Below, piece by piece: positions 4,689 through 49,942 of a stretch of 64,000 bases of DNA; positions within the stretch are counted from its first letter, which is position 1, and every line of letters begins with the position of its first letter. The notes under the pieces are model-generated. The model was given only the letters and a program-made list of their open reading frames with translations, was not told the DNA's origin and made no database searches. The DNA is from Octopus sinensis (lineage: Eukaryota), in the NCBI RefSeq assembly GCF_006345805.1, contig NC_043000.1:99510001-99574000 (forward strand), written 5' to 3'. Both the position numbers and the translations under genes were made by a program.

Positions 4689-4999
4689 TATTTTAGCTCA
4701 CTTTATATCAATACCTCTTTCGAAAGGAAAAAGAACGAAAGAACTTCTTTTACTCGAACCACAGTAGGTTGATATTTTGGTATCGTTTGTGCGAGGTCGT
4801 TCGAGCTTGTCCTCGAGATAGCAACGAGATTCCTACTTCATCTCATTAAATCGTCTCAGTGAAGGAAATATGAGCCCAGAAGATGAAAGAATGGGTGCTT
4901 AAAACTTGGAATGCATTCTGTCGGAGTTATCCTGGAGCTAAAACATGAGCAACCAGCCGAAAATCTGCTTTAGATGACATCAGAAAGATTTATACTGGT

Positions 5000-5212
5000 T
5001 TCTTCAAATTTTGACACACGGCTAGCAAGTTCAGGGGAAAGGGTAAGTCGATTACATCGACCCCAGTGCCCTACTGGCACTTATTTTATCGGCCCCAAAA
5101 GGATGAAAGGCAAATCGACCAAAGTCGAATTTGAACTCAGAACGTAAAGACGGACGAAATGCCGCTAAGCAGTTTGCCCGGTGTGCTAACGATTCTGCTA
5201 GCTCACTGTCTT
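5000..5212 (-). mobile_element. tRNA-derived SINE family B (Nin/Deu-like central domain)
   Basis: Minus strand: gagttcaaatt (B box), then tttgcctttcatccttttggggccgataaaataagtgccag. Further fragments lie at 5735-6030. Confidence 0.8.
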
Positions 5213-11756: not shown

Positions 11757-11935
11757 ACACATATATAGTTGTATACATAAATATATATATGAGTGTGCGC
11801 GCGCGCATATTGTACAACGTGTGTATCAATCTATATATAAATATATGTGTAGTATAACACAAAGTTAGGGGGTTATGGGTGTAATTTTTATTTATATATA
11901 TATATAACGCGTGCTCACAAACGTATGTGTGTATT

Positions 11936-11977
<42 letters not shown>

Positions 11978-12617
11978 TGTATATTAATGTATATATATAT
12001 ATATATATGCGTATATTAATATATATGCGTATATATATATATATATGCGTATATATATATATATATATGCGTATATATATATATATCATATATATTAATA
12101 TATATATATATGCATATATATTAATATATATATATATGCATATATATAGATATATATATATGCGTATATATACATATATGTATATATATGTTATATAATC
12201 ATATGTATATACATATATATATGCGTATATATACATATATGTATATATATGTTATATAATCATATGTATGTGCATGTATATATATAATATATATATATAC
12301 ACGCACACGCGCATAGAAATATACGTATATCCATATATATTCATTTGGGTGTGTGTGTATACATATACACTTGCACAACTTCATATATATATATATATAT
12401 AATATCGATCAATACGCGCGTATGTATTTATATCTCTGTCATTGCGTGTGAATATATAAATGTAATACATATATATATTATATATAATATGTATTTTGTA
12501 TATGTATATTAGAACACATACATAATATATATATAACATGCATATATATTATGTATATATATTTGTTTGTGTCTATTCAGTTATATATATCTAGATTCTT
12601 ATGCGCATATATATATT

Positions 12618-12666
<49 letters not shown>

Positions 12667-12919
12667 ACATATCCTTATGTCTTTGTGTCATACTATATGT
12701 ACATCAGCCAAATGTATTGATGAATGTGTGTACATGAATATATGTACATGTATATGTATATTTTTGAATGTGTACATATATACATATATACATATGAAAT
12801 GTATATATATATATATTTATGAATGTATATATATATATTATATACATAAAAAATATATAATAAATATATTATATTATATACCCATAATATATATATATAT
12901 ATCCATAATATATATATAC

Positions 12920-12975
<56 letters not shown>

Positions 12976-13676
12976 ACATAATATGAATACGTATATATAT
13001 ATATATACATATTTATATATGAATAAGTATATATATACATATTTATATATGAATACGTATATATATATATATACATATTTATATATGAATGTGTATATAT
13101 ATACATACATATATATGAATACGTAATATATATATATATACATATTTATATGAATGTGTTATATACATATATATGAATTTGTATTATATATCTATATATA
13201 TACATGCATGCATATATATATGAAAATGTGTTTTATATCACATATATATATCAATATTTATATTATATGTATATACATATATATATGCGTATATAACATA
13301 TAGTATATATATGTTATAAATCATATGTATGTGCTATATATATTATATATATATAATACACGCACACGCGCATAGAAATATACGTATATCCATATATATT
13401 CATTTGGGTGTGTGTGTATACATATACACTTGCACAACTTCATATATATATATATATATAATATCGATCAATACGCGTATGTATTTATATCTCTGTCATT
13501 GCGTGTGAATATTATAAATGTAATACATATATAATATAGATAATAGTATTTTGTATATGTATATTAGAACACATACATAATATATATATAACATGCATAT
13601 ATATTATGTATATATTTGTTTGTGTCTATTCAGTTATATAATATCTATATTCTCTATGCGCCATATATATATTTAA

Positions 13677-13707
<31 letters not shown>

Positions 13708-13993
13708 TATATATATATATCCACAACATATCCTATGTCTTTGTGTCATACTATATGTACATCCAGCCAAATGTATTGATGAATGTGTGTACATGAATAT
13801 ATGTACATGTATATGTATATTTTTGAATGTGTACATATATACATATTACATATGAAAATGTATATATATATATATTTATGAATGTATATATATATATTAT
13901 ATACATAAAAAATATATAATAAATATATTATATTATATACCCATAATATATATATATATATCCATAAATATATATATAACATAAATATATATA

Positions 13994-14035
<42 letters not shown>

Positions 14036-14588
14036 TATATCGAATATATATAATCTATATACATATTTATATATGAATAAGTATATATATACATATTATA
14101 TATGAATACGTATATATATATATATACATATTTATATATGAATGTGTATATATATACATACATATATATGAATACGTATATATATTAGAATAACATATAT
14201 ATATGAATGTGTATATATACATATATATGAATTTGTATACATATATATATATATACATGCATGCATATATATATGAAAATGTGTTTATATAAACATATAT
14301 ATATCAATATTTATATATATATGTATATACATATATACATGTGTATATATATGTATATATATATATGAATATACATATATATATATATGAATATATATGT
14401 GTATATATGTATATATATATATGAATATACACACATATATGGATATACATATATGAATATATATGTATATGCATATATATATATATATATGAATATATAT
14501 GCATGTATATAATGAATATACATATATATGCATATATATATATGAATATACATATCATCTGCATACCCACACACATATATTAATATAC

Positions 14589-14626
<38 letters not shown>

Positions 14627-14737
14627 CAATATGTATACATATACATACATGTATATATATATATATATTATATATATATATATGAATATATATACTTGTA
14701 TTCACGCACAGACAGTATATGATACGTATATACATTA

Positions 14738-14809
<72 letters not shown>

Positions 14810-14814
14810 TACCT

Positions 14815-14846
<32 letters not shown>

Positions 14847-15305
14847 CATTCCTATATATATATATATTATACACGCATATATATACGTACATACATATAT
14901 TCATGCAAACGCATTCGTCAACAAATTTGTGCGATTATTATAGATTTTATTTTAAAGCTTTTATATCATAACGTTTAATTGTGTATGCATGCATATTTTA
15001 GAATTGGTTTGCGCGTGTATAATTTATGGTGCCATATGTATTTTCATTTTATGTGTGTTTGTGCGTGTGCGCGCGTGCGTACATATATATATATATATAT
15101 ATAAATAAATATATTTTACACATTCTCTATTCGCATATTTAAGTCGTTTGTGTGTCCTTTTATGTTTTCAGTATGTATTTACTATTGGGGCGTACTTGTA
15201 TGCATGCATGTATGTATGTATGTACGTATGTATGTATATATGTACGTGCACTTACATTTATTCAGATTCTTAGAATTTATACATGTTTTTTTAAATCAGT
15301 GTACG

Positions 15306-15639: not shown

Positions 15640-15925
15640 AGGCTTAGTGGTTGAGGTATTTGGATCGCAATCGTTGTGTCCTTGAGCAAGACTCTTTATT
15701 TCACGTTGCTGTAGTTCACACACCTGGCAAGAATGAGCGGCACCTGTATTTCAAAGAGCCAGTTTTGTCACACTCTGTGTCATGCTGAATCTCCTGGAGA
15801 ACTACGTTAAGGGTATAAAGTGTTTGTGGAGTGCTCAGCCATCTGTTTGCGCGTTAATTTCACGAGCAGGCTCTTCTCCTGATCGGACCAACGAGAACCC
15901 TCGTCGTCGTAAACGACGGAGCGCT
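15640..15925 (+). mobile_element. tRNA-derived SINE family C (Meta-like central domain)
   Basis: ggcttagtggtt A box, then cgttgtgtccttgagcaagactctttatttcacgttgct..agttcac.cacctggcaagaatgag. The B-box region is deleted. Confidence 0.8.
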
Positions 15926-15943
15926 AATATGTTACAGACATGC

Positions 15944-16043
15944 ACTTCATACTTGAGGCTCTGATGAAGCAATAATGTGTTACTCAAGCACTCAACTGAA
16001 TCCACTGCATCTTATAGCGGAAACAGTTGTAAGCTGATGAAGT
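15944..16043 (+). ncRNA. Type I hammerhead ribozyme motif
   Basis: ggct-CTGATGA(15961)-stem II-GAAA(16020)-cagttg-TA-agct. Distal stem I acttcat/atgaagt. The stem I bulge cttgag is complementary to ctcaag in loop II. Confidence 0.7.
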
Positions 16044-16124
16044 TCTTTAATTATTTATTCCTTTGTCATTTATTTTTCTTATATATTATCATTCACACAC
16101 ACACACTGTATATATATATATATA

Positions 16125-16499: not shown

Positions 16500-16900
16500 T
16501 TAATTTACTTATGAATGCAGAGACACCATTAGAACAGTAATTTTGGGTAAATTACTCTTAGAAAATGGAAAATATTGTCAATAAACAACCATGGGATTTG
16601 AATCCACATTCCTTGAAGACTCCAGTCAAATGCTTTACCTTTAATCTAAACTGCCCACTGAGAAATTAATCTGCAATATTGTTAGATTCTATAAAGCTAA
16701 ATGTACAATTATGTGTATATAAATATAAGCAAACTAACATTTGTTTTTTATAAGCATTGAAATGTGTATTGTAGATACAGTTAAGATGATAATTTACTTT
16801 TCAATGCAGAGATGCCATTAGAACAAAGTGGAAAAATTTGTCAACAAACAGCAATTAGACTCAAACCCACATGCCTTGAAGAGTCCAGCCAAGTGCTGTA
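16500..16900 (-). repeat. ~289-bp diverged tandem repeat with a tRNA-like segment
   Basis: taatttactt..aatgcagaga..ccattagaaca occurs at 16501 and 16790. The minus strand has a B-box-like ggattcaaatccc. Confidence 0.65.
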
Positions 16901-20704: not shown

Positions 20705-21600
20705 AGTTATGTTTTGTAATGTGCATTATCATCCTGAAAGATTGTGTTTCCCTCCGGAAACAGTTCCGCAACCATAGGACGAATTTGATCAGATAAATTG
20801 CTTAAATAGTCTTGACTATTAATTCTGCCATGAAGGGAAGCCAGCGGATTTCTAAGATATAGCCCCCGCCCTTCGATCATCACAGATCTTCATCCATGGT
20901 TAACAGTTGGAAGAAGGCAATCTGGGTCACTTGCTTCTTTTGGTTGTCTCCACACATATGTAGACTCGGCCAGTGGTCGTAAATAAGGTAAAGGATGACT
21001 CATCCGAGAAAATAACCATTCTTCCACTGCTCTATTCTGTAGGTTTTTACTCCACTCTAAACACTTTGCAATGTTTGTTTCTGAAAGTAGTGGTTTTCTG
21101 ATTGCAGCCCTCCTGTGAAATCCAGCTTTGTACAGCTCCCGGCTAACAGTTTTTTTGGAAACTGGGTTCTCGAGGTGGTCATTAAACTCTGCAGTAATTT
21201 TAGGAGCTATACTTTTGTGATCCTTTCTAACAATTCATGTAAGCATCCAACGGTCCCTATCTGAAAGTTTTGGTTTTCTTCTGGAGTTGTGTTTTGATGA
21301 GGTGGTTTTTCCCTCTTTCGCAAAGGCTGTCATTACTTTTGAGACCGTACTTCCTGATACACCAAAACATTTCATTATACTAGCACCTGTCATATGAGCA
21401 CCAACAATTTGACCTCTTTGAAAGTGCGATAGATCTGTCATTTTAATGAATTTTAATTACCTTTTTCTGATGATATCTGAAAAGAAACTGCAATTTTAGC
21501 AATACATATTAAGCAACGGCAATAATAAATCAAGAAAAACATAAAAATGAGTGTTTTATAGATATTTCAAAATTATGATGCTAGGAGTTACCATTATTTT
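20705..21600 (-). mobile_element. Tc1-like transposase pseudogene fragment
   Basis: MTDLSHFQRGQIVGA..HTH, then VIFSDESSF, VWRQPKE, LLPTVNHG, IFQDDNA, with frameshifts. Confidence 0.9.
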
Positions 21601-49171: not shown

Positions 49172-49942
49172 ACATAATGGAAACTAATATGCACAAATCA
49201 AATTTTGCAACATCACTACATCACATATAAAAAAATGACATCGCTTAATTGGCAGCCAATTTCAGCTTGCACACCTGTGCTCTTTCCAAAACTTGCACCA
49301 TAACCCCCTCAAGAGTTTCAGACCCCACTTCTCTGAATTCCCTTTTGATGTTCTCCTTCAGTTGCACCAGGGTCTCCTGTTTGTTGACATAAACCCTCTC
49401 TTTCAGTCATCCCTGCAAGAAAAAAATCCAGTCGAGTCAAGTCTGGGGAACGTGTAGGCCAGTTGATATTGCCGTGGCAGAGGATTATTCTCTCTCCAAA
49501 GCACTGCCATTGCAACTGCATTGATTCTCTTGCAGTATGAGCAGTTGCCCCATCTTGCTGGAACCATGTGTGAGGTCTACTTTGAATGGCCGGGTGCAAA
49601 AAGGTCTCAATCATGGATACCTGAAAGAGAGGATTTACGTAAAAAAACTGAAGACCCTGCTGCAACTGAAGGGGAACATCAATAAAGAAATCAGAGAAGT
49701 TGGGTATGAAACTCTTGAGGGTGTTAAGATGCAAGTTTTGGAAAGTGCGCGGGCATGTGAAGCTGAAAATGGCTGCCATTTAAGCAATGTCATTTTTGAT
49801 ATATGATGTGTTGCAAAATTTGACTTGTGCATATTAATTTCCATTATGTCCCTTATATTGTATCAAAATTTCATGCATTTATTTGTACAGTTAAGAAAGT
49901 TATTAAATTTTGAAACCCATCGTTGACTTTTGGGACGCCCTG
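49172..49942. mobile_element. DD41D (rosa/Visitor-type) transposase relic: two 3' ends in inverted orientation
   Basis: Minus strand WFQQD-x41-D (WPTRSPDLTRLDFFL). Plus strand GYLKERIY..ACEAENGCHL. Right TIR gacttttgggacgccctg|ta. Confidence 0.85.

What the first reader, a model, noticed from the sequence alone, without database searches (positions are those of the whole stretch)
15944..16043. Hammerhead with a predicted 6-bp loop II/stem I pseudoknot
The stem I bulge cttgag (15952-15957) is perfectly complementary to ctcaag (15983-15988) in loop II. This is the geometry of the tertiary contact that accelerates natural hammerheads. The core is intact with a GUA site, but the first pair of stem II is an A-G mismatch, so this copy may be impaired.
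Basis: partly seen in the sequence, partly recalled or inferred. Interest (0 to 1): 0.7.

Follow-up and report, generated by a model that had tools for sequence, protein, structure and literature searches.

The report
Decayed Penelope-type hammerhead, pseudoknot not conserved
This is one worn, likely dead copy of a self-cutting RNA motif (hammerhead) at the end of a very common jumping repeat, and the perfect six-base pairing that drew attention is present in this copy but is not kept across its family, so it is likely a product of drift.

Summary
The type I hammerhead motif and the CUUGAG/CUCAAG match are there. The stretch is a 5'-truncated copy (15941-16082) of a dispersed repeat with about 1,500 search candidates. 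It shows Penelope-like insertion marks: inverted truncated pairs in 34 of 59 loci, tail on one arm in 32 of 34, microsatellite flanks. No coding partner was found.

The perfect 6-bp match occurs in 2 of 115 copies, as independent columns predict, with no covariation. The commonest source lineage likely had a C.A mismatch inside it; a minority lineage could form 7 bp with two G.U. The family stem II is 12 bp and 'loop II' is an internal loop plus hairpin, not the canonical geometry.

The purine-purine pair opening stem II is a family trait (A.A 84, A.G 21 of 115), not this copy's lesion. The copy is predicted dead for other reasons: two stem II mismatches, a broken apical hairpin and a broken helix III palindrome. 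The family likely cleaved as a dimer.

The scan has no note on this sequence; similar Penelope hammerheads were noted in other genomes.

The parts
15941..16082 (+). 5'-truncated, tail-less copy of a dispersed Penelope-type repeat, followed by (TA)n/(CA)n
   Evidence: 86% identity to the computed family reference over this span
15944..15950 (+). stem I distal, 5' strand (pairs with 16037-16043, 7 bp)
   Evidence: pair probability 0.90-0.97
15951..15957 (+). 5' side of the stem I internal loop; holds the proposed pseudoknot strand 15952-15957
   Evidence: 15952 is T in 104 of 115 copies (C here); 15954-55 is a CpG-decay site
15958..15960 (+). stem I proximal, 5' strand (pairs with 16032-16034; G15957.U16035 can add a fourth pair)
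   Evidence: constrained fold
15961..15967 (+). hammerhead core CUGAUGA (C3-A9)
   Evidence: 15962-63 reads TG 83, CG 18, CA 9 of 115 copies
15968..15968 (+). near-invariant A after A9, opposite the purine at 16019
   Evidence: A in 113 of 115
15969..15980 (+). stem II 5' strand (12 bp with 16007-16018 in the family; mismatches at 15971 and 15976 in this copy)
15981..16006 (+). distal stem II region: 6x3 internal loop plus apical hairpin in the family; holds CUCAAG 15983-15988; this copy lacks 2 nt after 15996 and has G>A at 16000
16007..16018 (+). stem II 3' strand
16019..16019 (+). purine between C11.1 and G12 (G here; A 84, G 23, T 6 of 115)
   Evidence: (A in 87-97% of depth in three runs)
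16020..16031 (+). GAAA, helix III (16023-16030; an 8-nt palindrome in the family majority, C>T at 16027 here) and predicted cut after A16031
   Evidence: perfect palindrome in 56 of 115
16032..16043 (+). stem I 3' strand
16044..16082 (+). element 3' end, about 55 nt after the cut site in the family, abutting (TA)n

Best explanation
This is a decayed, likely inactive copy of a type I hammerhead at the 3' end of an old repeat that is likely Penelope-derived, and its perfect 6-bp complementarity likely arose by drift on a partly complementary family background. In the source elements the ribozyme would have worked like other Penelope hammerheads: two RNAs would pair their palindromic helix III into a double hammerhead and cut after GUA, helped by a long stable stem II that opens with a purine-purine pair. 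Shown: motif, copy abundance, insertion architecture, column statistics. Inferred: source-lineage sequences (from CpG-decay patterns), dimer cleavage, inactivity of this copy (folding models only). Untested: any cleavage.
For: Family: 1,473 candidates, 43 matches at 77-90% identity apart from the self-match. Penelope-type architecture: 34 of 59 tail-selected loci hold an inverted truncated partner and 32 of those 34 have the tail on one arm only, as described in PMC8557442. Both ends abut microsatellites. GIY-YIG-bearing elements in the same genome end the same way, with a hammerhead-like motif shortly before a (TA)n-abutting end (read by eye). Pseudoknot: 2 of 115 perfect, no covariation. Flank-selected copies read TG 23, CA 20, CG 8 of 55 at 15954-55, the symmetric signature of a CpG source, which puts C opposite A15986. 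Geometry: stem II 12 bp and proximal stem I 3-4 bp, against 4 and 6 bp in canonical type I motifs (PMC4209133). Dimer: the double-hammerhead fold is 6.1-8.1 kcal/mol better than two monomers for the majority and A-lineage sequences, but 19.6 kcal/mol worse for the window copy. In the window copy stem II has probability 0.0 and UUGAG pairs with a second CUCAA (15991-95) at 0.71.
Against: No RT or GIY-YIG sequence is linked to the family: 1 of 227 family loci held a GIY-YIG fragment, and it is a separate insertion beyond the 3' end. Penelope membership therefore rests on architecture. All six positions can pair, G.U allowed, in 43 of 115 copies. The G15951 lineage could form 7 bp (shuffle P 0.09), and its double-hammerhead fold is not favoured (+1.9 kcal/mol). 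5' ends show only a weak excess at the cut site (10 of 95 in the 0 to +5 bin, 2 exactly at 0). Folding models ignore pseudoknots and proteins. Copies that decay neutrally cannot show covariation even if the source RNA used the contact, so its absence is weak evidence.
Confidence: 0.78

Rival explanations
1. The family used a real wobble-containing pseudoknot between the stem I internal loop and the stem II internal loop (up to 7 bp in the G15951 lineage). The later dominant lineage weakened it, and this copy happens to restore perfect pairing.
For: The unpaired segments in the family fold are exactly the two strands in question. G15951 copies read TG at 15954-55 in 32 of 38. Duplex energy is -7.7 kcal/mol for that lineage and -8.2 for the window. 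About 40% of hammerheads are predicted to use pseudoknots (PMC3088659).
Against: Shuffle P is 0.09 for the 7-bp run. Both lineage-level changes in the bulge (15951, 15954) break pairs, with no matching change in the loop strand. Pairing would have to open the apical hairpin base and probably the distal 4 bp of stem II to span about one helical turn (inference). PMC3088659 shows 1-2 bp changes in stem length lower activity substantially.
Confidence: 0.13
2. The complementarity is an off-switch rather than a brace. The stem I 5' strand pairs with CUCAA/CUCAG segments in the stem II extension and blocks the active fold until a partner RNA or the element's protein refolds it.
For: In the window copy the alternative helix dominates (0.71); mean 0.21 over 71 copies. 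Protein-assisted cleavage is reported for an anole Penelope hammerhead (PMC11167929).
Against: In the majority and lineage sequences the alternative helix has probability 0.00-0.06, so it appears only after decay.
Confidence: 0.04
3. The ribozyme was already non-functional in the source elements of most copies and was carried passively.
For: The CpG-decay pattern at 15962-63 (TG 33, CG 10, CA 8, TA 3 of 55) implies a source with C at core position 4. Stem II opens with A.A. There is no sharp 5'-end peak at the cut site. Cleavage is dispensable for insertion in vitro (PMC11167929).
Against: A lineage-level stem II change (G.U to A-U at 15972) preserves pairing. The majority keeps the palindrome and the core. 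Another repeat in this genome also has the C-at-4 core with a purine pair opening stem II, which suggests tolerance.
Confidence: 0.05

Closest known systems
Hammerheads of metazoan Penelope-like elements (Cervera and De la Pena 2014, PMC4209133; read parts 1-2 of 4)
   Same: Type I, longer-than-usual helix II, short proximal helix I, extra nucleotide after A9 followed by G-C, palindromic helix III, opposite-strand pairs of motifs, mostly solo truncated copies
   Different: Helix II is 12 bp plus internal loop and hairpin (they report 7-8 bp); a second purine lies between C11.1 and G12; helix III is an 8-nt palindrome; no ORF-bearing partner found
Pseudoknot-braced natural hammerheads, including human HH10/C10orf118 (Perreault et al. 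2011, PMC3088659; read passages and section 8)
   Same: Potential Watson-Crick contact between a stem I segment and a stem II loop; a mismatch opening stem II is known (U.U)
   Different: There the contact is mutationally validated and sensitive to stem length; here it is unconserved and the stem lengths are far from canonical
Non-LTR retrozymes (PMC7229834, read passages; bioRxiv 10.64898/2026.07.22.740005, read parts 1-2 of 5)
   Same: Protein-free repeat of a few hundred bases with a type I hammerhead and a proposed Penelope origin; axolotl HHR_Amex2 has a mismatch at the base of helix II
   Different: No head-to-tail tandem arrays seen; copies are solo or head-to-head inverted with a tail
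PK hammerhead (Zhan et al. 2024, PMC11300833; read passages)
   Same: 6-bp pseudoknot in a hammerhead
   Different: There the pseudoknot replaces helix II on a one-pair stem; here helix II is long and intact

Membership tests
Type I hammerhead ribozyme | Core CUGANGA, GAAA and NUH in type I order with three helices | tested here: met
   constrained folds; canonical core letters in 55 of 115 copies
Type I hammerhead ribozyme | Standard pair directly after A9/G12 | tested here: not met
   A.A 84, A.G 21, A-T 6 of 115; G-C is the next pair. Natural exceptions are known
Type I hammerhead ribozyme | Match to an Rfam hammerhead model | tested here: not met
   the long stem II is the likely reason (inference)
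Type I hammerhead ribozyme | Self-cleavage | not testable with these tools
   Only assembled contigs were available; 5'-end footprint inconclusive
Penelope-like element | Inverted 5'-truncated partner with tail at one end only | tested here: met
   34 of 59 loci; 32 of 34
Penelope-like element | Hammerhead near the 3' end, microsatellite target | tested here: met
   same layout in GIY-YIG elements
Penelope-like element | Extra nucleotide after A9 and palindromic helix III | tested here: met
   against PMC4209133
Penelope-like element | RT plus GIY-YIG ORF in the element or an identified autonomous partner | tested here: inconclusive
   No linked GIY-YIG in 227 loci; 14 of 14 longest-tail copies do not run into an ORF. 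Loci reach mostly 1.5 kb and searches score only the top 40 candidates
Pseudoknot-braced hammerhead | Pairing conserved or covarying across representatives | tested here: not met
   2 of 115 perfect; Fisher p 0.12-1.0; lineage changes break pairs
Pseudoknot-braced hammerhead | Stem lengths that bring the two strands level | tested here: not met
   12-bp stem II against 3-4-bp proximal stem I; judged against published canonical sizes, no 3D model built
Pseudoknot-braced hammerhead | Kinetic loss on disruption and rescue by compensation | not testable with these tools
   bench assay needed
Non-LTR retrozyme | Head-to-tail tandem units each with a hammerhead | tested here: not met
   No tail followed by the element's 5' part on the same strand in the loci held; direct pairs seen (L094, L095, L121) are 1.4-1.8 kb apart with unrelated spacers

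The most novel reading that the evidence does not exclude
A Penelope-type hammerhead family in which an internal loop placed a full helical turn up a 12-bp stem II folds back to form a 7-bp wobble pseudoknot with the stem I bulge, and whose core tolerates a symmetric purine-purine insertion at the base of stem II and C at position 4: a long-arm brace I did not find described (five library searches; Lunse et al. 2017 could not be read).
Probability: 0.12. Interest if true: 0.45.

Novelty: new member of a known kind. Interest (0 to 1): 0.2.

Why it matters
As it stands the finding is ordinary: Penelope-type hammerheads occur in thousands of decayed copies in animal genomes, and pseudoknot braces are common in hammerheads. 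It is a useful caution that a perfect pairing in one repeat copy can arise through CpG decay and conversion of wobble pairs to Watson-Crick pairs. The residual interest is at family level. If these elements cleave despite an A.A or A.G pair opening a 12-bp stem II and C at core position 4, standard search descriptors and Rfam models miss whole families of animal hammerheads.

Tried and rejected
Rfam: no hammerhead match for the window or a near-majority copy.

Expression: no RNA holder listed. Four runs guessed to be RNA hold family-like contigs, and one 223-nt contig at depth 2.5 covers 15890-16036 with 2 differences. These are contigs of unknown kind, so they say nothing on transcription, strand or cleavage.

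Coding partner: the first tblastn was swamped by other repeats in the queries; the clean repeat gave 1 unlinked fragment in 227 loci. Tail extension into an ORF: none in 80 tails or 14 pattern hits. Sequence shared upstream of about -215: none beyond microsatellite in 30 loci. Candidate counts fall 1473, 209, 32 going upstream (different queries), so a longer parent is not excluded.

Circular or tandem permutation (tail followed by 5' end): none. Cut-site footprint in 5' ends: a broad spread, 10 of 95 at 0 to +5 and 12 of 95 at the foot of stem I; several may be microhomology or internal indels; inconclusive.

Purifying selection on the core: core substitution rates are slightly below non-core medians in 55 copies, not convincing. 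A sister family for cross-family covariation: the long-stem-II family from L134 is too different to align. Split-core or permuted reading (lead): not needed, all elements lie in plain type I order. Lunse et al. 2017 is not held, so its variants could not be compared; supplements of the cited papers were not read and may contain such variants.

Full report
Observation. The window holds a hammerhead-like motif in plain type I order: stem I strands at 15944-15960 and 16032-16043, core CUGAUGA at 15961-15967, GAAA at 16020-16023 and GUA at 16029-16031. CUUGAG (15952-57) and CUCAAG (15983-88) are exact reverse complements, and A15968 faces G16019. Rfam finds no hammerhead. Folded alone, the 100 nt do not adopt the hammerhead fold and are not unusually stable (z -1.4). 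Shuffling the loop region gives six Watson-Crick pairs with the bulge in 1.1% of trials.

What the stretch is. It is one copy of a dispersed repeat in a 2.7-Gb animal genome: 1,473 candidates, 40 scored, 43 matches. The label 'octopus-like' is recalled from repeat content and an earlier scan note and was not tested. The family is also present in runs coded as organisms A, E and G. Shared sequence runs from about 215 nt upstream of the motif to about 55 nt after the cut site, with an optional tail of about 90 nt; both ends abut (TA)n, (TG)n or (CA)n. In loci chosen by the tail rather than by the ribozyme, 34 of 59 contain a head-to-head, 5'-truncated partner, and 32 of those 34 have the tail on one arm only. 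This is the insertion signature of Penelope-like elements described in PMC8557442 (passages). The genome holds thousands of GIY-YIG candidates (5,029; 150 scored). Several of the elements read end with a hammerhead-like motif shortly before a (TA)n-abutting end (by eye). None could be linked to this family. The window copy spans 15941-16082, is truncated at the foot of stem I, lacks the tail and lies beside an unrelated repeat.

Family structure. From 271 profile hits, 131 distinct near-complete copies were kept and 115 passed identity filters (16 dropped). Of these, 55 were reached by flank queries; the other 60 came from ribozyme queries, two of them chosen to enrich one lineage. The majority sequence folds into a 7-bp distal stem I, a 6x1 internal loop, a 3-4-bp proximal stem I, a 12-bp stem II, a 6x3 internal loop and a 7-bp apical hairpin (computed on 71 copies). 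Helix III is an 8-nt palindrome, perfect in 56 of 115 copies. The A after A9 is present in 113 of 115 and faces A (84), G (21), T (6) or other; depth-weighted contigs of three runs read A at 16019 in 87-97%. The purine-purine pair is therefore inherited. An extra nucleotide after A9, a long helix II and a palindromic helix III are published features of Penelope hammerheads (PMC4209133). A mismatch opening stem II is known as U.U (PMC3088659; PMC7229834).

The pseudoknot. Six Watson-Crick pairs occur in 2 of 115 copies (window and L049); independent columns predict 1.24 of 107. No pair covaries (five pairs tested, p 0.12-1.0). Relative to the majority, the window gains two pairs by turning G.U wobbles into Watson-Crick pairs (15952 T>C, 15987 G>A). 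Position 15954-55 reads TG 23, CA 20, CG 8 in the 55 flank-selected copies, the symmetric pattern of a decaying CpG. The main source therefore most likely had C opposite A15986 and only three Watson-Crick pairs (duplex -3.5 kcal/mol). Against my reading: a minority lineage (G at 15951; 8 of 55 flank-selected) had TG there and could form seven pairs with two wobbles (-7.7 kcal/mol; shuffle P 0.09). All six positions can pair in 43 of 115 copies when G.U is allowed, and the two strands are the unpaired parts of the family fold. Neutrally decaying copies cannot show covariation, so the informative comparison is between lineages. There both bulge changes break pairs with no compensation, while the stem II change preserves pairing. 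The geometry is also unlike the canonical contact (helix I 6 bp, helix II 4 bp): the loop strand starts two nucleotides above a 12-bp stem, roughly a helical turn beyond the bulge (inference, no 3D model). Validated pseudoknots are sensitive to 1-2 bp changes in stem length.

How it likely works. The source RNA would pair its palindromic helix III with a second copy and cut after GUA, as proposed for Penelope hammerheads. The computed double-hammerhead fold beats two monomers by 6.1-8.1 kcal/mol for the majority and A-lineage sequences, is slightly unfavourable for the G lineage (+1.9) and strongly unfavourable for the window copy (+19.6). The window copy differs from the majority by eight substitutions and a 2-nt deletion. 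These include two stem II mismatches (15971, 15976), a damaged apical hairpin and a broken palindrome. Its stem II has probability 0.0, and the bulge strand pairs instead with a second CUCAA at 15991-95 (0.71). It is therefore likely dead. Whether the family cleaved at all is untested. 5' ends of truncated copies are broadly spread, with only a weak excess at the cut site, and part of the family descends from a source with C at core position 4.

Comparison and novelty. It works like, and by insertion architecture likely belongs to, the hammerhead-bearing Penelope-type repeats; the coding criterion is inconclusive. It fails the tested criteria for a pseudoknot-braced hammerhead and for a tandem retrozyme. 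Five library searches showed no description of this family; Lunse et al. 2017 and all supplements were not seen. The scan holds no note on this sequence. It does hold notes on other hammerheads in this genome and on similar Penelope motifs in other genomes, which are unchecked leads.

Verdict. A real motif and an ordinary kind of element; the pseudoknot as described is not supported. Interest 0.2.

Noticed in passing
L133, L147, L158 (e.g. L158 near 2822 minus and 2846 plus in the oriented copy): A second, compact hammerhead repeat with core CCGAUGA or CCGACGA, an A.G or A-U pair opening a very short stem II with a tetraloop, in head-to-head inverted pairs. It shares the core oddities of this family.
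   Followed up: no
L129-L158 and the list: Thousands of GIY-YIG (Neptune-like, label recalled) retroelement copies, several with 780-781-aa open frames; the 3' ends of L136, L144 and L148 carry a hammerhead-like motif with the U3-A8 core variant (read by eye).
   Followed up: partly
L258-L277: A repeat family (177 candidates) with a type I hammerhead whose stem II is over 35 bp long and opens with U.U, with an 8-nt palindromic helix III and a tail; one copy lies downstream of a GIY-YIG frame.
   Followed up: partly
L095:3110-3337 and 4823-5050: Two copies of this family, 98.7% identical and 1.7 kb apart, apparently in neighbouring introns; local duplication or gene conversion.
   Followed up: no
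L278-L291, tail end: The longest tails end in an ATG-initiated stretch reading MPKRNIK in CpG-intact copies before the microsatellite; possibly the start of a lost parent ORF, but none of 14 continues.
   Followed up: partly
L106 and L115: Two loci share the same inverted junction beginning at the predicted cut site and the same extra tail fragment; probably one event duplicated.
   Followed up: no
window 16583-16655 (-): tRNA-like match just over the Rfam cut-off (30.6 bits).
   Followed up: no
window 15673-15925: A separate dispersed repeat (SINE-like, label recalled) directly upstream of the hammerhead copy.
   Followed up: partly
window 20890-21234 (+) and 49318-49779 (-): Frames resembling Tc1/mariner transposase fragments (motifs recalled).
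   Followed up: no
window 11932-14900: A 3-kb degenerate (TA)n array.
   Followed up: no
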